A program made the translations under genes and the position numbers. DNA of 64,000 nt from a virus. This document shows, piece after piece, positions 20 through 24,295 of this stretch. The stretch lies in IMG/VR virus record IMGVR_UViG_3300030060_008003, positions 1 through 64,000 of that record. One strand, given 5' to 3'. Below the pieces are notes generated by a model. It searched no databases. It had not been told where the DNA came from and saw only the letters and a list, made by a program, of their open reading frames with translations. Within the stretch, counting starts at the first letter, position 1, and each line of letters starts with the position of its first letter.

Positions 20-1228
20 TCATGACCCGGGTTTATCTTTTTGAAAGTTAGCTGAACTAAAATCTAATCTATTAACCAGCTTAACAGCATTACCATCTCT
101 ATCAACTGCTACATATCCCTCCGGAGATGTTACTCTCAACACACCTTCACCCTCATCAATGAAGTGCTTTGTGTTATATACAGCATTATTATACTTGTTA
201 ATGAAGATTTGCTTAGCTTGTGACAATAAACTACTAACTTTAAACAAATTAACTATGTCATCCTTTTGAGATTCAAATTGAGCCGTCTTTTGCTTAAGTG
301 TCTCTTCTAATTTTTGTTTCCCGCGTACAGATTTTCTTTTATCTATTTCTTTTTTAATCCTAGTAGTATACCACTCAATAAAGTTCCTATATGATTCTTC
401 AGGATCATTTAAAAACTTACCTTCTCTAATTTCTGTATTGATATAAGGATTGAGAAGGTCGGAAGGTAGGTCTTTATAATCTATTTTAATTGAATCAGCA
501 GTCTTAATTAAGTCTCTAACCTGTTTTACTTCATCTTTTGTTAAATTTACAATGCCAGTATCGTCTTTAAAGAAAGCATCATCAAACCAAACACCAGGCA
601 CTTTATTCAACCGGTTAACCTTAGCACCAAATGATGCAGGGCTGTCTAATCCATCGTATTCAGTGTGGAATATAATACCAAACACAGAGTTAGCTATCTG
701 TTTACCTAAATCCGAGTCAGCTTCTACTGCATACTTAATTGTATTTGGTTGAAAGGTATAATGTACCTCCCCGTCGATGTTCTCTTTCTTAACTGATGAA
801 GAGTCAAACATGAAATCACCTTGCATTATGTTTTTAATACCTAATTTAGGTAAATGCTTAAGAGCTTTTTTAAGCTTATCTGCTAAACCAGGAGAATGTC
901 CATGATTTATTTCAATATCTTGCTCGTTATAGTTAATTTTAGGATCTCTATTAAAGATAGACTTGGTACCAACAAAGAATTTACCGTTATCAGGGTGTTT
1001 TCCAACAAAGATAGCAGGTGCGCCATCCCATTTTACTGTAGTACCGATCTTTCTTTTACTCTTTCCTTGTAAATGACCTAATAAATTAACTAAAAAGCCC
1101 TTAGCTTGATCATAACCACCCTTACCTTTAGTAAGAATTAGCTCTTCTAAGTGTGTGAGATGTGTATTAGCTTTACCTTCTTCAAGGAGCTCTAAATAAC
1201 TTTCGTAATATAGTTTAAATTTTTTCAT
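20..1228 (-). CDS. DUF6267-like protein with RNA-ligase/nucleotidyltransferase-like motifs, putative internal virion protein
   Basis: Motifs TVKWDGAP (KxDG), QGDFMF, PEGYV, AVKLV. Start reassigned to ATG 1228 (MKKFKLYYESYLELLEE), just after the upstream stop. Confidence 0.6.
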   Translation of the reverse strand: MKKFKLYYESYLELLEEGKANTHLTHLEELILTKGKGGYDQAKGFLVNLLGHLQGKSKRKIGTTVKWDGAPAIFVGKHPDNGKFFVGTKSIFNRDPKINYNEQDIEINHGHSPGLADKLKKALKHLPKLGIKNIMQGDFMFDSSSVKKENIDGEVHYTFQPNTIKYAVEADSDLGKQIANSVFGIIFHTEYDGLDSPASFGAKVNRLNKVPGVWFDDAFFKDDTGIVNLTKDEVKQVRDLIKTADSIKIDYKDLPSDLLNPYINTEIREGKFLNDPEESYRNFIEWYTTRIKKEIDKRKSVRGKQKLEETLKQKTAQFESQKDDIVNLFKVSSLLSQAKQIFINKYNNAVYNTKHFIDEGEGVLRVTSPEGYVAVDRDGNAVKLVNRLDFSSANFQKDKPGS

Positions 1229-1232
1229 TTTA

Positions 1233-2582
1233 TTATATTGTGACCTGGTAAGCTGCTTTAAAGGCTCCCGATGTATTACTACCCGGGTAGAATATGTATA
1301 TTCCATCCCCCTCCGGTAAAAACCTGACTTTCCCGCTATTAATAGCATCTAGAATATTTTTGTAATCTTTTACATTTATATAATTAGCTAAGCTAAAAGT
1401 ACCTTCTTCCATTCTTGCAGGTCTATCCGGGTTAGGCACGCCTTTAATTTCTCCCTGCTTATATCCTTTTTGAAATACCGTCAAGAGAATATCAAATCCC
1501 TTTTTCGAAGCTTCATACGAATCCGGATCCCCTGGATTACCATCTCTTCCATACTCATAAAGCATAAGTCCACCAAAGTGTTGGATTCGTGTTTTCGCAT
1601 CTTTGCGCTCTGTTTTGGCATCTTGCTCTAAAAACATTTTTAACTGCTCTGTATTTTGAAACGTCTTAGTAACTAAATCAAAATTATACTCCATATTAAA
1701 ATCATCTATAGATAGATCCGACTTATTAGCTAGGTACTCAAATTTATCACGATCCTTCTTAAACCCACCCTTTCTACTACTAATAATTCTAGCTTTACCT
1801 GTTTTTACCTCTACATTTAACCCGTTAGGTAATTTTAAGTCACCAACATCACCTTTAAAGGCCTCTGTAAACAAACTCATCGCTAATTCACCATCTCCAA
1901 CACCCACTGTCCCTTCTTGAAAAGACTTAGAAAATATTTCATTATATACTTGCGATCTATCTTCTTCATTTTCTAAAAATGCTAATTGAGGCTTCATAAC
2001 GTCATATAAATTTACCTCCCCAAATGGTTCTTCAGTTATTGCCTCTGTTAAAACTTTTTTATTTTCTATATCCGTACCTAATTTAGCTAACAACTTATCA
2101 TCTAGGTCATACCGCTGTAATACCATCTTTACAAAGTTATATGTTTGCTCGTTATCAAACCCGGATTTTTTGACTAAGTCTCTTATGGCTGTAGCTGCTT
2201 CATTTGTTAATAACTCCCCTTGGTGAGTGTCTGCAATATAACCTATTCCTTTAGTTATTTTTTCAAAGCATTTCCGAGCTTCATCTTCGTTCTCTATTTC
2301 TCTACACTTCCTAAATGCAGCCTTAAGCTTTTCCGCTCCATCCCTTTCAGTAAATTCACCCTCTGCATCTAGCTCATCAATATCCTCTTCACTATTAATT
2401 TGCTTACCAATAAACGATAAATTAGCTCGTATAGGCTGCTCCCCACTAAGCTGTTTTCTTACACGTGCAAAGCCCGGCGCATCTCCTAAATTAAACTTTT
2501 CACCCAACACATGAAGGTGTCTACGCGGTGGAATCTTACCACGTACCTGCTTTTTATAAATGTCTTCTAATGACCACTGCAT
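1233..2582 (-). CDS. hypothetical protein with PD-(D/E)xK-like motif, putative internal virion protein
   Basis: 449 aa; VGDGELA...GDLKLPNGLNVEVKTG; part of late operon starting at 3350. Confidence 0.45.
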   Translation of the reverse strand: MQWSLEDIYKKQVRGKIPPRRHLHVLGEKFNLGDAPGFARVRKQLSGEQPIRANLSFIGKQINSEEDIDELDAEGEFTERDGAEKLKAAFRKCREIENEDEARKCFEKITKGIGYIADTHQGELLTNEAATAIRDLVKKSGFDNEQTYNFVKMVLQRYDLDDKLLAKLGTDIENKKVLTEAITEEPFGEVNLYDVMKPQLAFLENEEDRSQVYNEIFSKSFQEGTVGVGDGELAMSLFTEAFKGDVGDLKLPNGLNVEVKTGKARIISSRKGGFKKDRDKFEYLANKSDLSIDDFNMEYNFDLVTKTFQNTEQLKMFLEQDAKTERKDAKTRIQHFGGLMLYEYGRDGNPGDPDSYEASKKGFDILLTVFQKGYKQGEIKGVPNPDRPARMEEGTFSLANYINVKDYKNILDAINSGKVRFLPEGDGIYIFYPGSNTSGAFKAAYQVTI

Positions 2583-6278: not shown

Positions 6279-6674
6279 GTGGAATTGCTAAAAAAGTATA
6301 TGCAAGAAATTGGTGAAGATCTTGTACTAAACGATCTCAACCTTAAACAACAACAGCAAAGACTCCCAGCTCGTAAGCATTTTTGGGTTGGTAGACTTGT
6401 AGAAGCAAAGATTAAACGCAATAAACTGATTGCTCAGAAGAGTAAGCTTAAAAAGGACCTAGTTAAGAAGGTAATTGCTGATTCTCCTGTACGTATTAAT
6501 CAAGCTTCAGCAGAATCAGCTGCTGAAAGGTATGAATCTGTCGCAAAACTTAACGATAACATAAAAGAACAAGATACTATTATAGAATATCTTGAAAAGG
6601 TCGAAAAAATTCTTAGTAATATGCATTGGGAGATCAAAAATGTTATCGATATGAATAAAATGGAGCAATATTAA
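6279..6674 (+). CDS. uvsY: UvsY-like recombination mediator
   Basis: 131 aa, helical; IEYLEKVEKILSNMHWEIKNVID C-terminus; directly upstream of uvsW. Confidence 0.75.
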   Translation: MELLKKYMQEIGEDLVLNDLNLKQQQQRLPARKHFWVGRLVEAKIKRNKLIAQKSKLKKDLVKKVIADSPVRINQASAESAAERYESVAKLNDNIKEQDTIIEYLEKVEKILSNMHWEIKNVIDMNKMEQY

Positions 6675-8095
6675 TGATAACTTTTGATTATAACCCCTCT
6701 ACACGTAAGATGTTACTAAAAACAGAGGATCTAGATCTGTTTAACCGTGTAAGACATCATTTTAGTATTATAAATGATGCAGCGCGCTTTGGTAGACGGT
6801 ATGGTCGATATGCACCTCAAAGAAAGTATGCTATAACTCCTGCTGGTGCATGTGAAGTTGGTTTATATTGGGAGATCAAGAAGTTTTTAACTAAAGAAGA
6901 TACAGAAACTACCGATAAACTACAAAAAGTGTTAAAGGTAGGTAAAGATATAGAGCTTTATAAAGACTTTGCATTTGATTTAAGGGAATATCAAGAAGAT
7001 GTTATTAAAAAAGCCCTTAAACTCGGCACCGGTACTTGTGTTTTGGGTACTGGCGCCGGTAAAACCTTTACAACAGCAGCGTTAATTGAAAATTACTTTA
7101 GAGATAGTAAGGATAAAGATACATTTAAGTGTGTTGTATTAGTTCCAGACTTAGGACTAGTTACTCAAACGTATGATGAGTTCTTAAACTGTGGTACTAC
7201 CTTTAAAATAACTAAATGGACGGGTAAAATTAAGCCAGACCTAACTGCAAACGTTATTATTTGTAATATAGGTATTGTTCAGAGTAGGTTTGAACAAAAT
7301 GACTGGTTAAAGCACATTGATCTACTTATAGTTGATGAGTGTCATAAGATAAAATCGTCTAATAAGATTAGTAAGATAGTATCTAGAATAAGAACACCTA
7401 ATAAGTATGGCTTTACTGGTACTCTCCCGGAGAACAACTTAGATAAGTGGTCAATTATAGGTAAATTAGGACCAGTTATATACGAAAAGACGAGTTATGA
7501 ACTTAGAATAGAAGATTACCTCGCTAATGTTAACGTTAAGATCTTAAATTTAGATTATCGTATACCACCGCCATATAATAGTGATAATTACTACAGAGAA
7601 GAGCTAGATTACATATATGAAAGTCATTTTAGAAACGATTTTATTACTAAATTATGTTCTAAACTCGAAAATAACACCCTAATACTTGTTAATCATATTT
7701 CTCACGGGGTAAATCTATCCGAATACCTCACTCAATGTAAAGATAAGCAAATTTACTTTATTAGAGGTGAAGTTGAAGTAGAAACACGTGAGGATATAAA
7801 GAGGATAATGGAGAAAGATAATGACGTTATATGTGTAGCAATGAGTTCTATTTTTTCCACCGGGGTTAATATTAAGAATATACATAATATTATTTTTGCC
7901 TCTGGTGGTAAGTCATTTGTACGTACAGTACAATCCATTGGCCGTGGTTTGAGAAAGCACAACTTAAAATCTAAGCTTATTATATTTGATCTCTGCGATA
8001 GGCTAAGATATGGTATTAGACACTGTGAAAAGCGTAAAGAAATTTACGACATAGAGAAGATAAAGTATAGTGAAACTAATATTGTTGAAAAATAA
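6674..8095 (+). CDS. uvsW: UvsW SF2 DNA helicase
   Basis: LREYQ, GTGAGKT, DECH, GFTGT, FSTGVN, QSIGRGLR. Confidence 0.93.
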   Translation: MITFDYNPSTRKMLLKTEDLDLFNRVRHHFSIINDAARFGRRYGRYAPQRKYAITPAGACEVGLYWEIKKFLTKEDTETTDKLQKVLKVGKDIELYKDFAFDLREYQEDVIKKALKLGTGTCVLGTGAGKTFTTAALIENYFRDSKDKDTFKCVVLVPDLGLVTQTYDEFLNCGTTFKITKWTGKIKPDLTANVIICNIGIVQSRFEQNDWLKHIDLLIVDECHKIKSSNKISKIVSRIRTPNKYGFTGTLPENNLDKWSIIGKLGPVIYEKTSYELRIEDYLANVNVKILNLDYRIPPPYNSDNYYREELDYIYESHFRNDFITKLCSKLENNTLILVNHISHGVNLSEYLTQCKDKQIYFIRGEVEVETREDIKRIMEKDNDVICVAMSSIFSTGVNIKNIHNIIFASGGKSFVRTVQSIGRGLRKHNLKSKLIIFDLCDRLRYGIRHCEKRKEIYDIEKIKYSETNIVEK

Positions 8096-16988: not shown

Positions 16989-18104
16989 ATGGATAAAGAT
17001 ATTGCTAGCGCATTAGACGCTATAGATAAAGTAAACCCTTTTGCTACTTACCTCGATAATAATACTCTTAGTCATGTTGGAGAATGGATTGATACTGGAT
17101 CATATGTATTAAATGCGATTATCTCTGGTTCAATTAATGGTGGAATTCCTAAAGGTAGAGTAACTATGCTCGCTGGGGAATCTATGACTGGTAAGTCATT
17201 GTTTGTTCAAAAGATTTTAGCTAAAGCTCAAGAAGAAGGGCTTACTCCTGTTATTTTTGATACTGAAAATGCTATTGATCCAGATGGTGCAGCAAGACTT
17301 GGTTTAGATATTAGTAAAGTAAAATACGTACCTACTACTAGTATTGAACAAGCAAGAAACGCTCTATATAAATTTCTTACTTCTGTTAAAGAGAAAGGAC
17401 TTGAAGGTAAGTTCATCGTAGCTATTGATTCTCTTGCTAACTTACAATCTGAACTTGAACTTAGTCGTATGAGTAAAGATAGTACTTCTTCTGATATGGG
17501 TACTAAGGCTCGAGCTATGAAAACCTTGATGCAAACTTGTACCAACTTAGGTGCTATTACTCAGACTACAATCCTCTGTACTAACCATGTATATGACGAC
17601 CCTACTGCACTGTTTCCTTCTATTGAAAAGAACATGCCAGGTGGTAAGTCATGTGTATATCTACCCTCTGTAACTGTACAATTAGCGCGTAAGCCTATGA
17701 AATCAGATGGTGGTAAAACTGTTGATGGTGAATTGGCTGTAGGTCAGAAAAAATACTCTGGTATCATTATTAGAGCTTTAACACGTAAAAATAGATTTAT
17801 CAAACAATATCTAGAGGGTGAAATGTATCTTTCTTTCTCTACTGGTTTGGATAGATACTACGGACTAGTGGACTTAGCAGTTGGAGTAGGAGCAGTGATA
17901 CAAACTGGAGCTACCTATCAACTTGAAGATGGTAAAAAGTTAGGATATTATAAAAATTGGCGTAAAGATGAGAAACTCTGGGAAGAGACTATTTTACCTA
18001 AAGTAGAGGAAAGAATTAAAGACGAATGGTCGTATAGCAATAAAGAAGGTGAGGAAGCTCCTGATGAAATTGGATTAGAAGATTTATTAGATGGTGATAA
18101 ATAA
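16989..18104 (+). CDS. uvsX: UvsX RecA-like recombinase
   Basis: DTGSYVLNAIISG, GESMTGKS, DTENA, IDSL, MPGG. Confidence 0.95.
   Translation: MDKDIASALDAIDKVNPFATYLDNNTLSHVGEWIDTGSYVLNAIISGSINGGIPKGRVTMLAGESMTGKSLFVQKILAKAQEEGLTPVIFDTENAIDPDGAARLGLDISKVKYVPTTSIEQARNALYKFLTSVKEKGLEGKFIVAIDSLANLQSELELSRMSKDSTSSDMGTKARAMKTLMQTCTNLGAITQTTILCTNHVYDDPTALFPSIEKNMPGGKSCVYLPSVTVQLARKPMKSDGGKTVDGELAVGQKKYSGIIIRALTRKNRFIKQYLEGEMYLSFSTGLDRYYGLVDLAVGVGAVIQTGATYQLEDGKKLGYYKNWRKDEKLWEETILPKVEERIKDEWSYSNKEGEEAPDEIGLEDLLDGDK
18098..18103 (+). promoter_or_regulatory. late promoter core (TylF-like)
   Basis: TAAATA-5nt-ATG. Confidence 0.55.
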
Positions 18105-18108
18105 CGTA

Positions 18109-18795
18109 ATGAAAATTGGTCATAAATTTCGCGAGCAAATACTAAGCGATATACGTCATGAAGCTTTTAAAAAAGCCGTAAGGTTTATTAACTATGAGTT
18201 AGTACCTGGTGATATATGTGAGTTCGGATGTTATACAGGAAGAAGCTTAGCTAGTTTAGCGTACTCCCATCAACAATACTTTCAAGACGAAAATCAACAT
18301 AATAGAAAGAGTAGTATAGATAGAAATATATACGGGTTTGATAGTTTTGAAGGGTTACAAGATTCAGAAGGTCATCCAAGATGGGAAAAAGGCGTATTTA
18401 AGATTAATCATTCCTTTCACCCTCTTATCGGTTATGGAGAAGACGTTACCCCGAAAAAAGTAGTTAACTTCTTCTCGCATTATAATCTTCAAACCCCTAT
18501 TATTAAGGCTGGTTATTTTGAAGATATAGAAATTGATGATATCAACGAAATTGCTATTCTACATATAGACTGCGATCTATATACAAGTACAAAAACTGTA
18601 TTAAACTTAACTAGAGATAAATTAGTACCTGGTAGTATAATTTTATTTGATGATTGGTTTCATTTTAGAGGTGATAGAAACAAAGGCGAACGATTAGCAT
18701 TTAAAGAATTTTTGGAAGAAAATAAAAATATTAAAACAGAAGAATTTTTAAGATACGGTACCTTCTGTAAAGCTTTTATAATTAATGAAACGTAA
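18109..18795 (+). CDS. TylF/MycF-family O-methyltransferase
   Basis: GDICEFGCYTGRS, GFDSFEGL, LHIDCDLY, FDDW; ATG 18109 is 5 nt after TAAATA. Confidence 0.85.
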   Translation: MKIGHKFREQILSDIRHEAFKKAVRFINYELVPGDICEFGCYTGRSLASLAYSHQQYFQDENQHNRKSSIDRNIYGFDSFEGLQDSEGHPRWEKGVFKINHSFHPLIGYGEDVTPKKVVNFFSHYNLQTPIIKAGYFEDIEIDDINEIAILHIDCDLYTSTKTVLNLTRDKLVPGSIILFDDWFHFRGDRNKGERLAFKEFLEENKNIKTEEFLRYGTFCKAFIINET

Positions 18796-19543
18796 ACTAG
18801 TATTAACTCTTAGCGGTGGAATGGACTCGTCTGTGCTGTTGTATATGGCACAAGATCGAGGTTATGAAGAAATACATACTCTAACTTTTGATTATGGTCA
18901 GCGACATAAACGTGAATTAACGTGTGTTAATAAACAAATTAATAATTTTAACGAGCAGTTTTCCGGTTGGTTTAATTTAGAGGTAACTAATAAGGTCTTA
19001 GATGTAAAATACATTAGAGATATTGCTCCTACTTCATCTTTAACTAATGAAGATATTGATAATCCCAATATTAGTGAAATGGCCGGTGATGCACAACCTG
19101 TATCATATGTACCGTTTCGAAACTTAATGTTTTTATCTATCTGCTCTTCGTATGCTGAGAGTGTTGGTGCTGATACTGTTTGGTATGGTGCTGCTCAAGT
19201 AGATTCGCTAGCTGGTTATTGGGACGGTAGTGAAGAGTTTGTAGATGTAGTTAATAATGTAACTGATCTTAATAGAGAAAATAGGATTGTAATTGAAGCC
19301 CCGTTACTTGAAATGTCTAAAGCTGAAATTATTAAAGAGGGTGCTAGACTTGGTGTTAAGTTTAAAGATACTTGGACTTGTTATTCGGATAGAAAAGATA
19401 AACTAGCAGATGCTACTACGCCGTCGAGTAGTATGAGAGTAAAAGGGTTTGTGGATGCTGGTTTAAAAGACCCTATTGCTTACATCCAACAAGAAAAGTT
19501 GGATAAGCTATACGAAGAAAATAATTGTAAAGAGTGCGCTTAA
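18785..19543 (+). CDS. queC: QueC-like PP-loop ATP pyrophosphatase with degenerate Zn site
   Basis: SGGMDS, FDYGQRH, SSLT, YVPFRN, SKAEII, TWTCY; CxxCxxC replaced by DATTPSS. Confidence 0.75.
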   Translation: MKRKLVLTLSGGMDSSVLLYMAQDRGYEEIHTLTFDYGQRHKRELTCVNKQINNFNEQFSGWFNLEVTNKVLDVKYIRDIAPTSSLTNEDIDNPNISEMAGDAQPVSYVPFRNLMFLSICSSYAESVGADTVWYGAAQVDSLAGYWDGSEEFVDVVNNVTDLNRENRIVIEAPLLEMSKAEIIKEGARLGVKFKDTWTCYSDRKDKLADATTPSSSMRVKGFVDAGLKDPIAYIQQEKLDKLYEENNCKECA

Positions 19544-21150
19544 AGACCGTAACGTCTAAGCTCTTCTAACTGCCAAGATGTCTTTGGCTTATATTTTTCT
19601 TTAAAGGACTGATTCTTAGTCTCGGTCCTTTTATTACGCTTATCAGAAGCAGTTTGCTCAGTAAGATATACTGATGTATTGGTTTTATGTGACTCAAGCA
19701 TAGGTTGCATCCTTATAGCCTCATCACCACCTTCTTCATCTTCAATCATATTTTTAGCTAAGTCTTCTTTATCTTTAGTAACCATAGCTTTAAGAACTTC
19801 TTCATAATCGTCAGGCACATCTTCATCTGATTGTGGTCCGATATCAAAGTCATCAAACTCATTATCTTCACTAGCAGCATGCATAATAATTACTGTATCT
19901 TCATCTACTCCGTACTCTTTAGTACCATCACCCATATCATCCCACTCACCAGAGATACAATCTTTTACGTCAACACCAGCATGATTGCAAGCGTCTTCTA
20001 AAGAGTCAAATGTTTTATCTTTCATCATAATTTGACCATGTTGTCCTCCTACGGAGCCTACGGAAAATTTAATGTTAAACTCATCCTCTGCGCCTTCATA
20101 ATTACCTCTCATCTTAGCTAATACAGCACCAGCCACTCTTTCTCCAGCTGCTTTTGAGCCATACTTTTTACCAGCGCTTTTTGCTATTTTAGAAAAATTC
20201 TTTCCCGGTTTACCGATATCTTTTCCTGCTCTAGCCTTCTTAGCACTAAGATCTTCTGCATCTTCTACTTCAGTAATTCCTCCACCTTCTTCACCCATTG
20301 AATATTCATCCGGCTCTTCAGGACTATCAAAACCATATCCCATCTCCTCATAATCCTCATCAGGTGACATAACAACAACTACACTATCACTAATTCTATC
20401 AACGTCTCTCTTTAACGCTGCTTCAATTTTATCAATACCGTGTGCTGTAACAGCCTTAGCTAATGGAGTATCTGGATCAACCGAAAACTGAACTGTATTA
20501 CCACTAATATCTAACCCATCTTCATTAGCATACTTTGAAACAATATTACCAACATCTTCAACACGCTCTGCATCTCTGATTTTAATCTCAATAAACGTTG
20601 TTGGATCTTCTTTTGACATTTGTAAACTTTGAGCTAACTCAGATTCTGCAGCATCCATTTGACCTACAGCACCTTCAACAGCATCACCCATATCTTCACC
20701 TGCTTTAATGTCTTTAGCTAATTCCAAAGCAGCTTTTTGTGCTGCATATTTTTCTTCCCTACCTCTATCAGTTGTTGCTCTATTAATATAACGAGCGAGA
20801 TTATCTTCAACCTCTTTAGCTATCGCATCTTTATTTTGTTCGATAACATCCTCTTTTGCATCCAATAAGGCTAGAAGATTTTTCTTTTTGGCAGCAAACC
20901 CAGCTCCTCTCTTAGCAGCAGCTAATTCATCATCGCTTATAAGCTCTAAGTTATACAGTGCTGTTCTAATAAAGTTAATTGTATCCAGCGGAGCAGAACT
21001 GAACCCAGCTGATCTTAGATCTTTAGTAACACCACCAAAAGAAGGATGGTATTTAGCATAAGGTGATTTTTTAGCTTCCGTAAGGAACTCTGCCCTGTTG
21101 AATAAATCATTAAAGCCACTAAAATTATCGGTGAAATCGAAGGAACTCAT
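19540..21150 (-). CDS. acidic late protein, putative processed internal head polyprotein
   Basis: Late promoter; FLTE, MLE and YLTE sites; E-D-x-E linkers flank a basic module KKARAGKDIGKPGKNF. Confidence 0.55.
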   Translation of the reverse strand: MSSFDFTDNFSGFNDLFNRAEFLTEAKKSPYAKYHPSFGGVTKDLRSAGFSSAPLDTINFIRTALYNLELISDDELAAAKRGAGFAAKKKNLLALLDAKEDVIEQNKDAIAKEVEDNLARYINRATTDRGREEKYAAQKAALELAKDIKAGEDMGDAVEGAVGQMDAAESELAQSLQMSKEDPTTFIEIKIRDAERVEDVGNIVSKYANEDGLDISGNTVQFSVDPDTPLAKAVTAHGIDKIEAALKRDVDRISDSVVVVMSPDEDYEEMGYGFDSPEEPDEYSMGEEGGGITEVEDAEDLSAKKARAGKDIGKPGKNFSKIAKSAGKKYGSKAAGERVAGAVLAKMRGNYEGAEDEFNIKFSVGSVGGQHGQIMMKDKTFDSLEDACNHAGVDVKDCISGEWDDMGDGTKEYGVDEDTVIIMHAASEDNEFDDFDIGPQSDEDVPDDYEEVLKAMVTKDKEDLAKNMIEDEEGGDEAIRMQPMLESHKTNTSVYLTEQTASDKRNKRTETKNQSFKEKYKPKTSWQLEELRRYGL

Positions 21151-21156
21151 ATAATA

Positions 21157-21164
21157 TATTTATA
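21157..21164 (-). promoter_or_regulatory. T4-type late promoter
   Basis: Perfect TATAAATA-6nt-ATG. Confidence 0.75.
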
Positions 21165-21167
21165 CCC

Positions 21168-21620
21168 ATGAAGCTAAATTATAAGGATTTTAATAAAATG
21201 ACTGAAAAAGAACTGTGTAAACTGCCTGGTGTAGGGAGGACCACAGCTAAACGTATTGTAGGCTTTAGACCTTTTAGAAACAATGACGACCTGTTTAAGG
21301 TAAAGGGTCTAGGTAGAAAGACACTTAAGAATCTAGGAATCGAAAAAACTAAAAAGAAAAAGAAAAAATGGTTTACTATTGATGGTGTCGATTACCCGGA
21401 TTATAGTCTAGCCAAAGACAAGAGATATGGTAATATTGATTTGTTTTGGAGGATACCTAAGGAGCATAGACAATCTATCGGCGAACCAAGTGCCCATGTA
21501 TTACGAATGAGAAAAATTTGCGAAAGAATTAGAGCTGAGGGACCTGAAGGTACTATGAGTAGATATGTTGATAATTCACATATGTGGGAGCCAGGATTTA
21601 AGTTTGATTGGGAAGATTGA
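21168..21620 (+). CDS. helix-hairpin-helix (ComEA-like) DNA-binding protein
   Basis: ELCKLPGVGRTTAKRIV...PF...DLFKVKGLGRKTL. Confidence 0.8.
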   Translation: MKLNYKDFNKMTEKELCKLPGVGRTTAKRIVGFRPFRNNDDLFKVKGLGRKTLKNLGIEKTKKKKKKWFTIDGVDYPDYSLAKDKRYGNIDLFWRIPKEHRQSIGEPSAHVLRMRKICERIRAEGPEGTMSRYVDNSHMWEPGFKFDWED

Positions 21621-21644
21621 TTATTGCACAAAATATATTAACAT
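21617..21644 (+). promoter_or_regulatory. sigma70-like promoter (GATase-GT)
   Basis: TTGATT-N16-TAACAT-5nt-ATG. Confidence 0.6.
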
Positions 21645-21649
21645 AAATT

Positions 21650-22312
21650 ATGTGTGCAATTTTCGGATCGTTTGATAAGACTATGTTAGAGGTCTTATAC
21701 GACGCAAATAAGGAACGTGGTAATTTTGCTAGTAGTATTGTATGCTTGTCAGATGATGATCAGTATATTGCTAAATATGAAGGTGATATAAATTTTGATA
21801 AATTTAACTATGCTGGTAGAAAAGACATAGAATATCTTCTAGGGCATGTACAAGCTCCTACCTCAGCTAAAAGAACTTGGAATTATAATACATCACATCC
21901 GTTCGAATCTATGACTTGGTTAGTGAGTCATAATGGCGTTCTAACGAATGAAAAAAAGCTAAGAAGAAAGCATACAAGATTTTTAGAAAATCCTGTTGAT
22001 ACAGCTGTTATAGTTGAGTTACTTGAGAAATATTCACAAGTTAATAAAACACCTATCAATACTATTAAGCAAGTACTACCGATGCTTGAAGGTTCGTTTG
22101 CTTTAAGTGTTGTTAATTGTGATACGAACGATGTGTTTATTGCTAGAGTAGGATCTGTATTACATTACAATAACAAAGGTAACTACACTACAATGCCAGG
22201 AGCTGGTTATAAGGTTTTACCAGAAGGTGTAATAATGAAGTTAAATAAGAGAACAAAACGTTGGAATAAAGCTGGGACTTTTGAAGTTAAGTCTCCATTT
22301 ACATTTGTATGA
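21650..22312 (+). CDS. stand-alone class II (Ntn) glutamine amidotransferase
   Basis: N-terminal MCAIFG, RG, HPF, HNGVLTN, VDT, EGSFA. Confidence 0.85.
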   Translation: MCAIFGSFDKTMLEVLYDANKERGNFASSIVCLSDDDQYIAKYEGDINFDKFNYAGRKDIEYLLGHVQAPTSAKRTWNYNTSHPFESMTWLVSHNGVLTNEKKLRRKHTRFLENPVDTAVIVELLEKYSQVNKTPINTIKQVLPMLEGSFALSVVNCDTNDVFIARVGSVLHYNNKGNYTTMPGAGYKVLPEGVIMKLNKRTKRWNKAGTFEVKSPFTFV

Positions 22313-22968
22313 GCAACACATTTATATTTTCTGCTACAGCAGGTAAAAAAGAAGATTCAATGCTTTATAATACTTGTAAAGATGAAGGAATTGATATCTT
22401 CATTAAAGAGCATAATAAAGAATCGTTACAAAAAACATATAACAAAGCAATCGATTTTGCAATTAAGGAAAGAGTTGAAAATCTAGTTCTTGTTCATGAT
22501 GATGTAATATTAGAAGCTTTTTCAGAGAGAAGAATAGAAAAAAACTTTGAAAAATTTGATATAGTAGGTGTCGCCGGTTGTAATAAAGTAACTCTTAAAA
22601 AACCAGTATTGTGGCATTTACTTGGAGGAGGATTTGAAGGCGGGCATTTAATCGGTGCAGTTGCACATGGTACAGTAAATCAAAAACACATGGGTGGTTT
22701 TGGATTTTACCCTAACAGAGCTATTCTTATTGATGGAGTCTTTTTGGTTATAAAGAGAAAGGTATTTGAAAAAATACGATTTGATGAGTCGTGTCCATCT
22801 AAGTGGCATTTTTATGATTTAGATTATTCTATGCAATGTCACAAAGCTGGGTTTAAAGTTGGCGTTGGTGATTTTATTATAACACACAAATCTCCCGGTC
22901 TTACAGAGTTTACTGAAGAGTTTCAAAAAGGCGAAGACTGGTTTCTTGATAAGTGGAAAACTCAATAA
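22309..22968 (+). CDS. GT-A glycosyltransferase (Glyco_tranf_2_5-like)
   Basis: YNKAI, LVHDDV, GVAG, IDGVF, FDE, WHFYDLDYS, HKSPG. Confidence 0.8.
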   Translation: MSNTFIFSATAGKKEDSMLYNTCKDEGIDIFIKEHNKESLQKTYNKAIDFAIKERVENLVLVHDDVILEAFSERRIEKNFEKFDIVGVAGCNKVTLKKPVLWHLLGGGFEGGHLIGAVAHGTVNQKHMGGFGFYPNRAILIDGVFLVIKRKVFEKIRFDESCPSKWHFYDLDYSMQCHKAGFKVGVGDFIITHKSPGLTEFTEEFQKGEDWFLDKWKTQ

Positions 22969-22987: not shown

Positions 22988-24295
22988 GTGAGTAAATTAG
23001 ACTTAGATTATTTCGAAAATATTCTTATTTATAAGTCTCTTACTGATAGTGGTTATTTGGCTTCTATTGCTGATTTTGTTAAGCCAGAATACTTTAAAAA
23101 TAAATCGATTGCAAGTATCTTTAATATTATTAAAGAGTTTTCTGAAAATAGGAATAAACTTCCAACTGCTACTGAAATAAAATCTTATCTTGTTTCTGAC
23201 GAGCAGAAAGAGTCGTTTAAGGAACTTGTTAAGTCATTTTCCGATATTGATAATACTTTAGATAAAGACGAACTGTATGATAATACTGAACAGTTCCTAA
23301 AGGAAAAGGCTGTCTATCATACAATGCTAAATGTTGCTGAAGATGTATCAAGTGGTAAAGTAGATACGTCTGTTGTGTTGGATAAGTTTGAAAAGTCTTG
23401 TAATATTAACCTTGTAACCGATCTCGGTTTAGACTTTTACGGCGATGTTGATAAACTTATTGATGATCTTAACTCTGTAGAAAGATATGTTCCAAGTAAG
23501 TGGGAATGGCTAGATAATTGTTTAGGTGGAGGCTTTCTAGAAGCGGGTAAGGCTCTATATGTCTTTGCAGGTGAAACTAATATTGGTAAATCTATCTTTT
23601 TAGGTAATATTGCGAGTAATATAGCTGAAGAAGGTAAGAACGTTTTATTGGTTACTCTTGAGATGTCTGAGCTATTGTATGCTAGACGTATTTGTAGTAA
23701 CGTTACTAAGATTCCAATGAAAGAACTAGCTCAAAACTCTGCCAGCATTAAGCATGGTATGAGTAATGAAGATGGTAAAATTTTTATTAAAGAGTTTCCT
23801 CCTGCAACTATTACTGCTAATCAACTTAAAGCATTTGTTAAGAAGTTTGAAGAGCAGGGCATTAAGCTAGATGCTATTGTACTTGATTACCTTAATCTAA
23901 TGCACTCTACTGTGGGTAATAATTCATATGAACGTATAAAGCATGTAACAGAGCAAGTACGTGCTATGAGTTACTTGTTTAATTGTCCTATTATTTCAGC
24001 TACTCAATTGAATAGAGCTGGGTTTGATACAGATAATCCTGACTTAGCTACTATTTCTGAATCTATTGGTCTAGCTGCTACTGCTGATGCAATTATTTCT
24101 ATCTTTCAGAATGAAGAAGATAGAGGTATAGGTGTTATTAGACTTGGTATGATGAAAAATCGTTATGGTCCGAGAGGTAATACTCAAGCTATGAGGATTG
24201 ATTACTCTACTCTAACTATTGAACAAGCAGATGATATTGAGATAGGGGAAGATATGGATGATACCCTTAACGTGCTGGCTGGACTTGCACAATAA
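22988..24295 (+). CDS. 41: gp41 replicative helicase (DnaB-like)
   Basis: GETNIGKS, VTLEMSE, IKEFP, LDYLNL, SATQLNR, SESIG, KNRYG. Confidence 0.95.
   Translation: MSKLDLDYFENILIYKSLTDSGYLASIADFVKPEYFKNKSIASIFNIIKEFSENRNKLPTATEIKSYLVSDEQKESFKELVKSFSDIDNTLDKDELYDNTEQFLKEKAVYHTMLNVAEDVSSGKVDTSVVLDKFEKSCNINLVTDLGLDFYGDVDKLIDDLNSVERYVPSKWEWLDNCLGGGFLEAGKALYVFAGETNIGKSIFLGNIASNIAEEGKNVLLVTLEMSELLYARRICSNVTKIPMKELAQNSASIKHGMSNEDGKIFIKEFPPATITANQLKAFVKKFEEQGIKLDAIVLDYLNLMHSTVGNNSYERIKHVTEQVRAMSYLFNCPIISATQLNRAGFDTDNPDLATISESIGLAATADAIISIFQNEEDRGIGVIRLGMMKNRYGPRGNTQAMRIDYSTLTIEQADDIEIGEDMDDTLNVLAGLAQ

What the first reader, a model, noticed from the sequence alone, without database searches (positions are those of the whole stretch)
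18785..22968. QueC-like enzyme without Zn site, plus stand-alone GATase and GT between uvsX and 41: candidate novel DNA/glycan modification
Seen: the QueC-like protein keeps SGGMDS, YGQRH and VPFRN, but has GYWDG for the usual GYPDC and TCY...DATTPSSSMR for SCY...CxxCxxCxxR. An Ntn GATase and a GT-A follow after a two-gene interruption. No folE, queD, queE or dpdA is in the window. Known: Gat-QueC pairs occur in 7-deazaguanine (G+) pathways, QueC homologues occur in Qat and CBASS defence systems, and T4 DNA-modification genes lie around uvsX/41/43. Inference: a split ATP-dependent amidotransferase acting on a non-canonical substrate, possibly followed by glycosylation.
Basis: partly seen in the sequence, partly recalled or inferred. 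Interest (0 to 1): 0.72.

Follow-up and report, generated by a model that had tools for sequence, protein, structure and literature searches.

The report
Phage QueC step of deazaguanine DNA
The odd QueC-like gene and its separate glutamine-splitting helper are one step of an already known phage system that replaces guanine in DNA with a 7-deazaguanine. The rest of the pathway only looked absent because the contig is cut off a few kilobases short.

Summary
A QueC-family protein (18785-19543) keeps its catalytic motifs but has GYWDG and only one of the four zinc cysteines. A class II amidotransferase (21650-22312) and a GT-A glycosyltransferase (22309-22968) follow.

The interpretation (non-canonical substrate, no deazaguanine pathway) is mostly not supported:
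- The 91.5 kb contig is about 43% complete and ends 4.6-6 kb short of queD and queE, as seen in its nearest relative.
- One 93%-complete relative (G011) has the same zinc-poor QueC, Gat and GT. It also has FolE, QueD, QueE, QueF, a DpdN-type formyltransferase and a DpdA3 transglycosylase.
- The zinc-site loss is derived within the family and is under purifying selection (dN/dS about 0.1). It coincides with a new Cys-bearing C-terminal tail.
- GYWD goes with having a Gat partner.

Best reading: a two-subunit, glutamine-dependent preQ0 synthase feeding DpdA3-type DNA modification. The glycosyltransferase is tightly coupled to Gat, but its target is unknown.

The scan has already found this module on other genomes, and follow-ups there reached the same reading. 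This is a new variant of a known kind.

The parts
18785..19543 (+). QueC-family PP-loop ATPase (preQ0 synthase). The canonical Zn site is reduced to one Cys (C199), and the protein ends in a new C-terminal C-x-x-C-A tail (C247, C250).
   Evidence: Pfam QueC 9.8e-54. TIGR00364 score above the equivalog cut-off. PDB 2PG3 at 1.8e-25 and 3BL5 at 2.7e-23. The AF2 model (pLDDT 85) is closest to 2PG3/3BL5. Motif table, tail, dN/dS about 0.1.
21650..22312 (+). Stand-alone class II (Ntn) glutamine amidotransferase with N-terminal Cys2. Inferred to be the ammonia-supplying subunit for QueC.
   Evidence: GATase_6 4.4e-10 and GATase_7. It hits phrog_12378, the Ntn protein next to QueC in Vibrio phages, and phrog_10428, a long family (476-position profile) whose two halves match this GATase and this QueC separately. 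Syntenic with QueC in all relatives. The MC(A/G)I(F/Y) start is conserved.
22309..22968 (+). Small GT-A glycosyltransferase, translationally coupled to the GATase (4-nt overlap). Its acceptor is unknown.
   Evidence: Glyco_tranf_2_5 1.1e-11. Invariant HDD at 63-65. AF2 pLDDT 91; best folds are the UDP-binding majastridin 2NXV/2QGI and STIV A197. The GAT-GT gap is 10 nt or less in 66 of 67 loci. No homologue in cultured phages.
18091..18795 (+). TylF-type methyltransferase overlapping the queC start by 11 nt. An accessory gene found only in the closest relatives.
   Evidence: Pfam TylF 2e-17. Detected only in L001-L005.
21168..21620 (+). HhH (ComEA-like) DNA-binding protein between QueC and Gat. 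Conserved in the crown group only; role unknown.
   Evidence: HHH_3 1.1e-11. Present in relatives with QueC identity of about 72% or more, absent in deeper ones and in G011.
19540..21150 (-). Acidic 536-aa protein on the opposite strand. It is an insertion that splits the ancestral QueC-Gat-GT operon and is not part of the pathway.
   Evidence: No Pfam or PHROG hit. Poorly conserved at 28-99% identity. Absent where QueC, Gat and GT are directly adjacent (L071, L072, L077, L078).
16989..18104 (+). uvsX recombinase, the left anchor of the island.
   Evidence: Synteny across 80 loci. tblastn matches RecA-like genes of T4-like cyanophages.
22988..24295 (+). gp41-type replicative helicase, the right anchor of the island.
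   Evidence: Synteny.

Best explanation
QueC (18785-19543) and the stand-alone class II amidotransferase (21650-22312) together form a glutamine-dependent preQ0 synthase. QueC adenylates 7-carboxy-7-deazaguanine. Ammonia released from glutamine by the Gat subunit converts it to the amide, and a second ATP-dependent step gives the nitrile preQ0. This is one arm of a 7-deazaguanine DNA-modification system scattered over four loci in an abundant, uncultured marine T4-like phage family: (FolE)-QueD-QueE; QueC-Gat; DpdN-kinase-like-QueF; and DpdA3. QueF would reduce preQ0 to preQ1. The DpdN-type formyltransferase would give formyl-preQ1. [quoted passage not shown] The missing CxxCxxC zinc knuckle is a derived structural change in this clade, not a change of job. 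Shown here: homology, synteny, co-occurrence in one near-complete genome, and purifying selection. Inferred: the Gat-QueC partnership, the chemistry, the identity of the final base, and that this truncated contig's own genome carries the other loci.
For: - Pathway in relatives. QueD and QueE are in all six large relatives, G001-G006. QueE hits phrog_2076 at 2.7e-43 and QueD hits phrog_2389 at 2e-35. In the nearest relative, G006 (QueC 99% identical), they lie 4.6-6 kb past the contig's base 1. FolE was found in three of the ten relatives searched, G003-G005, and later in G011. QueF is in G001 and G002.
- DpdA3. The 263-aa protein of G001/G002 is 47.5% identical (1e-75) to the annotated DNA guanine transglycosylase of immuto_2-6A. 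It is 45.7% identical to its homologue in Campylobacter phage CP220 and 27% to that of Cellulophaga phage phiST. These are the DpdA3 phages of PMC10516641.
- Other shared parts. The G001 formyltransferase is 44.8% identical to DpdN YP_010114479 and QueF is 46.7% identical. The gene order formyltransferase, kinase-like, QueF is the same.
- One genome with everything. G011 (196.9 kb, 93% complete) holds FolE, QueD, QueE, a Zn-poor QueC with the same motifs as the window, Gat, GT, QueF, DpdN and DpdA3.
- Local linkage. QueD sits directly upstream of QueC in L054.
- Zn site. The reduced forms make one derived clade (100/100 support) nested among 4-Cys marine forms. dN/dS is 0.08-0.11 overall and 0.05-0.13 in the former Zn region. 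The immuto_2-6A QueC lacks all four Zn cysteines, and that phage's DNA is fully fdPreQ1 (PMC10516641).
- Gat partner. QueC followed by an Ntn GATase occurs in the deazaguanine clusters of ValKK3, 2.275.O and pf16. YWD goes with a Gat partner and YPDC with none.
Against: - The window's own contig holds none of the other genes, so the link rests on relatives with 76-99% identical QueC.
- No biochemical data exist for a split Gat plus QueC, and none for a Zn-less QueC. In QatC, mutating the four Zn cysteines abolishes function (PMC13639016).
- DpdA3 activity could not be reconstituted in E. coli by the authors who named it (PMC10516641).
- The phage 9g Gat-QueC fusion is linked to G+ rather than preQ0, so the product of this pair could differ.
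- The conserved coupling of Gat to a glycosyltransferase is not explained by this model.
Confidence: 0.78

Rival explanations
1. The pair works like fused Gat-QueC of phage 9g and archaea. Besides, or instead of, making preQ0, it amidates preQ0 to the archaeosine base G+, and the DNA carries dG+.
For: The window's GATase and QueC each hit one half of the long family phrog_10428. Gat-QueC with DpdA gives dG+ in E. coli (PMC6884629).
Against: The genomes also carry QueF and a DpdN-type formyltransferase, which use preQ0 and preQ1. ValKK3-type phages that have the same split pair also carry QueF, and their close relative VH7D inserts preQ1 through its DpdA2 (PMC10516641). The QueC here is the only one found in G011, so it must at least make preQ0.
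Confidence: 0.1
2. The Zn-poor QueC-like enzyme has changed substrate. With Gat and the GT, it builds a non-deazaguanine product such as an amidated or glycosylated sugar or glycan, unrelated to the Que genes elsewhere.
For: Gat-GT coupling is ancestral and nearly universal. In relatives the island collects sugar enzymes: TylF methyltransferase, cytidylyltransferase, carbamoyltransferase and epimerases. QueC-family enzymes can use other nucleophiles (Cap9/QatC).
Against: The QueC scores above the curated equivalog cut-off. Its fold and sequence are much closer to QueC than to Cap9. It is the only QueC found in a 93%-complete genome that has QueD, QueE and QueF and so needs one. The 4-Cys and Zn-poor forms occupy the same slot. 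QueD is adjacent to it in L054.
Confidence: 0.07
3. The phage makes preQ0 or preQ1 to raise queuosine in host tRNA (translation tuning), not to modify DNA.
For: This is an older proposal for phage que genes. Restriction systems are reported to be rare in SAR11, the likely host group (PMC7029224).
Against: A close DpdA3 homologue and a DpdN homologue are present. No Tgt was found.
Confidence: 0.05

Closest known systems
[quoted passage not shown] 2023, PMC10516641)
   Same: It has FolE, QueD, QueE, QueC, QueF, DpdN, a kinase-like gene and DpdA3. DpdA3 is 47.5% identical, DpdN 44.8%, QueF 46.7% and FolE 60.7%. The gene order DpdN, kinase-like, QueF is the same. Its QueC also lacks the Zn cysteines.
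   Different: The immuto genes are clustered, whereas here they sit in four loci. Immuto has no Gat and no homologue of this GT. Its QueC keeps YPDC and is only 33% identical.
QueC plus adjacent Ntn amidotransferase in DpdA2 phages (Vibrio phage ValKK3 and its close relatives such as VH7D, Pseudomonas phage pf16) and in Vibrio phage 2.275.O
   Same: QueC is immediately followed by a roughly 200-aa class II GATase. The YWD motif replaces YPDC. QueF and FolE are in the same cluster.
   Different: Those QueCs keep all four Zn cysteines. ValKK3 and pf16 carry a DpdA2-family protein (phrog_10773), which is absent here; no transglycosylase was looked for in 2.275.O. There is no coupled GT.
Fused Gat-QueC (Enterobacteria phage 9g, Crenarchaeota)
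   Same: The same two domains: class II GATase plus QueC.
   Different: Here they are two genes, separated in this window by two inserted genes. The fusion is tied to G+/dG+ with DpdA1, whereas this family has QueF, DpdN and DpdA3.
QatC / Cap9 defence-system QueC homologues
   Same: QueC fold and PP-loop.
   Different: Sequence is far more distant (4.4e-05 against 1.8e-25). Those proteins keep the Zn site, have QatB or CD-NTase partners, and conjugate the base to protein. No such partners are present here.

Membership tests
QueC (7-cyano-7-deazaguanine synthase, PF06508 / TIGR00364) | PP-loop SGGxDS and a score above the curated equivalog cut-off | tested here: met
   SGGMDS is present. TIGR00364 scores 157.7 bits against a cut-off of 150.3. 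Pfam QueC 9.8e-54.
QueC (7-cyano-7-deazaguanine synthase, PF06508 / TIGR00364) | C-terminal Cys4 zinc site (C ... CxxCxxC) | tested here: not met
   Only the TCY cysteine is kept. I treat this site as conserved rather than defining. The QueC of immuto_2-6A, a phage with proven fdPreQ1 DNA, lacks all four cysteines, and basal members of this same orthologous group keep them.
QueC (7-cyano-7-deazaguanine synthase, PF06508 / TIGR00364) | QueC fold | tested here: met
   The AF2 model has pLDDT 85. The best PDB matches are 2PG3 and 3BL5 with target-normalised TM-scores of 0.71-0.81.
QueC (7-cyano-7-deazaguanine synthase, PF06508 / TIGR00364) | Co-occurrence with QueD and QueE, which supply the substrate CDG | tested here: met
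   Met in relatives G001-G006 and G011. The window's own contig ends before that locus.
QueC (7-cyano-7-deazaguanine synthase, PF06508 / TIGR00364) | Converts CDG to preQ0 with ATP and ammonia | not testable with these tools
   Needs an enzyme assay or complementation.
Gat-QueC (fusion) | Class II GATase domain fused to QueC in one polypeptide | tested here: not met
   They are two separate genes 2.1 kb apart. They are adjacent but still separate in L071, L072, L077 and L078.
Gat-QueC (fusion) | N-terminal catalytic Cys of the Ntn GATase | tested here: met
   The MCAIFG start is conserved across relatives.
DpdA3-type 7-deazaguanine DNA modification system | DpdA3 transglycosylase encoded by the phage | tested here: met
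   Present in G001, G002 and G011: 47.5% identity to immuto_2-6A DpdA and 45.7% to CP220. The corresponding region is not on the window's contig.
DpdA3-type 7-deazaguanine DNA modification system | QueF and a DpdN formyltransferase (fdPreQ1 branch) | tested here: met
   in relatives only.
DpdA3-type 7-deazaguanine DNA modification system | 7-deazaguanine present in virion DNA | not testable with these tools
   Needs LC-MS/MS of nucleosides.
QatC / Cap9 (defence QueC-like) | QatB or CD-NTase partner and a closer match to Cap9/QatC than to QueC | tested here: not met
   Cap9 scores 4.4e-05 against 1.8e-25 for QueC. The neighbours are phage replication genes.
GT-A glycosyltransferase (PF13712) | GT-A fold with a DxD metal and nucleotide-sugar motif | tested here: met
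   Invariant H63-D64-D65. AF2 pLDDT 91. Foldseek hits to UDP-bound majastridin, STIV A197 and ppGalNAc-T enzymes.

The most novel reading that the evidence does not exclude
The ancestral, translationally coupled QueC-Gat-GT operon makes something beyond fdPreQ1. The GT-A would add a sugar to a 7-deazaguanine, as free base, nucleotide or in DNA, giving a glycosylated deazaguanine not yet described. In parallel, the Zn-poor QueC would have rebuilt a metal or disulfide site from C199 and the new C-terminal C-x-x-C tail.
Probability: 0.1. Interest if true: 0.75.

Novelty: new variant of a known kind. Interest (0 to 1): 0.35.

Why it matters
It assigns a very abundant marine T4-like phage group to the DpdA3 class. 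In the cultured phages tested, that class replaces guanine in DNA completely. The group carries CsgF/CsgG curli genes like pelagimyophages, and its QueC, DpdA3 and GT families each have over a thousand database relatives. If this assignment holds, much oceanic viral DNA may be guanine-free, which matters for sequencing bias, restriction and CRISPR escape, and nitrogen budgets.

It also gives two testable enzymology points. First, a natural QueC lineage shed the CxxCxxC zinc knuckle that is essential in QatC and gained a Cys-bearing tail. Second, a separate glutaminase subunit tracks with a P-to-W change next to the active site.

As a discovery it is modest. The system is already described, and the scan has reached the same reading on sister genomes.

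Tried and rejected
- Pfam TGT, DUF6610 (DpdA4), PF23859 (bacterial DpdA) and phrog_10773 (DpdA2) found no transglycosylase in up to 11 contigs. phmmer with the ValKK3 and pf16 DpdA2 proteins also found nothing. The DpdA3 surfaced only as a weak DUF6610 hit (0.0038; 20 of 24 family members). It was settled by tblastn against cultured phages.
- hhalign of the DpdA3 alignment against a two-sequence DpdA2 alignment was uninformative because both were shallow.
- An HMM search of PDB with the DpdA3 profile gave only chance hits.
- A megablast of the locus against cultured phages gave nothing. UvsX is at most about 32% identical to cultured phages, so no host could be assigned by similarity.
- I considered a nucleotide-level, toyocamycin-like route because of GMP reductase and dGTP diphosphohydrolase genes in the island and PRTases in G001 and G002. 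I set it aside once DpdA3 was found.
- I tried to find relatives with the GT but without QueC. Only close relatives were returned, and all have QueC and Gat, so the bystander question for the GT stays open.
- I could not read the AF2 coordinates, so the C199-C247-C250 distances were not measured.
- BSTP12_048, annotated as Gat/QueC, turned out to be a plain 223-aa QueC, so no true fusion was compared.


Full report
**What is there**

The window is the first 64 kb of a 91.5 kb IMG/VR viral contig that CheckV rates 43% complete. It comes from a T4-like myovirus with about 34% GC. Between uvsX (16989-18104) and the gp41 helicase (22988-24295) lie six genes:
- a TylF-type methyltransferase (18091-18795);
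- a QueC-family protein (18785-19543; Pfam QueC 9.8e-54);
- an acidic 536-aa ORF on the opposite strand (19540-21150);
- a 150-aa HhH protein (21168-21620);
- a class II Ntn amidotransferase that starts MCAIFG (21650-22312);
- a small GT-A glycosyltransferase that overlaps the amidotransferase by 4 nt (22309-22968).

**Check of the observation**

I aligned the QueC to the solved QueCs 2PG3 and 3BL5. It keeps SGGMDS, YGQRH and VPFRN. It has GYWDG where they have GYPDC, and it retains only the TCY cysteine of the C...CxxCxxC zinc site.

The protein still scores above NCBI's equivalog cut-off for QueC (157.7 against 150.3 bits). Its AlphaFold model (pLDDT 85) is closest to 2PG3 and 3BL5, ahead of Cap9.

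**Why the pathway looked absent**

No TGT, FolE, PTPS or radical-SAM gene is on the contig. I then fetched 80 related viral loci.
- The order uvsX, QueC, variable genes, Gat, GT, gp41 holds from 99% down to 48% QueC identity. In L071, L072, L077 and L078 the three genes are directly adjacent. So the acidic ORF and the HhH gene are insertions into an older QueC-Gat-GT operon.
- Larger relatives carry QueD (five of five searched), a QueE-like radical-SAM protein (phrog_2076, 2.7e-43), and FolE in three of the ten searched (G003-G005).
- Base 1 of the window's contig aligns at 94% nucleotide identity to the nearest relative, G006 (QueC 99% identical). QueD and QueE lie 4.6 and 6.0 kb beyond that point.
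- In L054 a 140-aa QueD sits directly upstream of QueC.

**The rest of the system**

G001 (81% complete) and G002 (72% complete) carry a bimodular QueF. It sits in an operon of DUF3307, formyltransferase, an AAA_28 kinase-like gene and QueF.

About 8 kb away is a 263-aa protein with a weak DUF6610 hit (20 of 24 family members). Its ESM Atlas neighbours are named queuine tRNA-ribosyltransferase or DpdA. A tblastn search against cultured phages settled its identity:
- 45.7% to Campylobacter phage CP220;
- 27% to Cellulophaga phage phiST.

These are exactly the DpdA3 phages of Cui, Hutinet et al. 2023 (PMC10516641). In those phages guanine is completely replaced, by fdPreQ1 in immuto_2-6A.

The G001 formyltransferase is 44.8% identical to DpdN YP_010114479, and QueF is 46.7% identical. 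The order DpdN, kinase-like, QueF is shared.

One 196.9 kb relative, G011 (93% complete), holds everything at once: FolE, QueD, QueE, QueC, Gat, GT, QueF, DpdN and DpdA3. Its QueC has the same zinc-poor motifs as the window and ends in CKKCA. DpdA2 and DpdA4 are absent.

**The zinc site**

Cultured-phage QueCs served as outgroup in a maximum-likelihood tree.
- The basal marine branches keep all four cysteines.
- All reduced forms fall in one derived clade with 100/100 support. Eight sequences have two cysteines and 44 have one.
- Within that clade, dN/dS is 0.08-0.11 for unsaturated pairs, and 0.05-0.13 in the former zinc region. The protein is therefore under purifying selection.
- Nearly every reduced form gained a C-terminal tail with a conserved cysteine. 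34 of the 52 end in C-x-x-C-A. None of the 4-Cys forms has a cysteine in its tail. This suggests compensation, possibly a rebuilt metal or disulfide site. I could not measure distances in the model.
- The QueC of immuto_2-6A, a phage whose DNA is fully fdPreQ1, lacks all four cysteines. So a zinc-less QueC is compatible with a working pathway, even though the site is essential in QatC (PMC13639016).

**GYWDG and the Gat partner**

QueCs that have an adjacent Ntn amidotransferase carry Y-W-D. These are the marine family, ValKK3, 2.275.O and pf16. QueCs without such a partner carry (Y/F)-P-D-C. These are immuto_2-6A, CP220, BSTP12, B. subtilis and Erwinia. The sample is small, but the deviation tracks the partner and not a new substrate.

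The window's Gat hits phrog_12378, the Vibrio-phage Ntn protein next to QueC. Gat and QueC each hit one half of the long family phrog_10428 (476-position profile). I infer that Gat supplies ammonia from glutamine to QueC. That would be sensible for phages of nitrogen-poor ocean hosts. This partnership is inferred, not shown.

**The glycosyltransferase**

The GT is a genuine GT-A. It has an invariant HDD motif and an AF2 model with pLDDT 91. Its nearest folds are the UDP-binding majastridin and the STIV A197 transferase.
- It has no homologue in cultured phages and none in immuto_2-6A or CP220.
- It is coupled to Gat (gap of 10 nt or less) in 66 of 67 loci. It co-occurs with QueC and Gat in all 26 loci that have enough upstream DNA.
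- In relatives, the island also collects other tailoring or sugar genes: a DpdN-like formyltransferase or a GNAT, a dATP/dGTP diphosphohydrolase, GMP reductase, cytidylyltransferase, carbamoyltransferase and epimerases.

Nothing links the GT chemically to the base. The close relatives examined cannot separate shared function from shared ancestry. Earlier follow-ups of this scan on sister genomes called it a bystander. I could not test their key observation, a relative that keeps the GT without the system.

**Lineage**

G001 and G011 carry CsgF/CsgG curli genes. That trait has been reported for pelagimyophages (PMC7029224), so SAR11 or a similar host is plausible but not shown. UvsX is only about 32% identical to cultured phages.

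**Verdict**

The idea of a split amidotransferase is supported. The ideas of a non-canonical substrate and of no deazaguanine pathway are not. This is a new variant of the known DpdA3/DpdN deazaguanine DNA-modification system. It is distinguished by a zinc-site-remodelled QueC, a separate Gat subunit, dispersal over four loci, and a tightly coupled GT of unknown target. The scan has already noted the same module and the same QueC variant on other genomes. I reached this reading before consulting those notes, and it agrees with them.

Noticed in passing
window 19523-19543 (QueC residues 247-252); relatives: Nearly every Zn-site-reduced QueC gained a C-terminal tail with a conserved Cys. 34 of the 52 end in C-x-x-C-A. 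The 4-Cys forms have no Cys in the tail. This may be a relocated metal or disulfide site.
   Followed up: partly
window 19217-19231 (GYWDG); L092, L093, L111, L124, L125, L212: Y-W-D occurs in QueCs that have an adjacent Ntn amidotransferase, and (Y/F)-P-D-C in those without one. That is four lineages against five. The motif may mark the Gat interface or an ammonia path.
   Followed up: partly
[quoted passage not shown]: The QueC of this cultured phage, whose DNA is fully fdPreQ1, has none of the four zinc cysteines (TSY ... SASSVER). The paper passages I read do not mention this.
   Followed up: partly
L100:18192-18785 (G001), L103:3606-4328 (G005), L123:15472-15996 (immuto_2-6A): An AAA_28 / thymidylate-kinase-like protein sits between DpdN and QueF in both the marine family and immuto_2-6A (32% identity). 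A paralogue lies next to QueE. It is a conserved member of the system with no assigned role.
   Followed up: partly
L073:1217-2179, L079:1860-2891: In two deep-branching relatives, a GMP reductase / IMPDH-family gene lies between QueC and Gat. This recalls ToyE of toyocamycin biosynthesis (a recollection, not tested here).
   Followed up: no
L051:12500-12961; L057:5899-6420 and 6436-6774: Between Gat and GT, some relatives carry a GNAT acetyltransferase and others a DpdN-like formyltransferase (41.5% identical to DpdN). In the loci checked that carry one, it is followed by a dATP/dGTP diphosphohydrolase domain protein.
   Followed up: partly
L065:8374-9975; L065 and L069 downstream of Gat: Another subgroup has a NodU-type carbamoyltransferase between uvsX and QueC. 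In place of the GT it has further genes, some of which look by sequence like NAD-dependent sugar epimerases. The uvsX-gp41 gap is a hot spot for tailoring genes.
   Followed up: no
G011 (L202:3-359 and L211, contig 188263-189063): The 196.9 kb contig starts with the first 119 codons of a second, divergent DpdA3 copy. This suggests wrap-around assembly of a circularly permuted genome from mixed strains, with a true size near 189 kb.
   Followed up: no
L101:391-1720 (G001), also G011: CsgF and CsgG curli-secretion genes, as reported for pelagimyophages. They lie between the QueF operon and DpdA3.
   Followed up: partly
L212:1501-2172 (Bacillus phage BSTP12_048): This gene is annotated as glutamine amidotransferase / QueC, but it is a plain 223-aa QueC with YPDC and a full Zn site. 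The public annotation is misleading.
   Followed up: yes
window 20-1348 (minus strand): The first gene of the contig is a DUF6267 protein (4.9e-98). It is conserved at this position in all large relatives.
   Followed up: no
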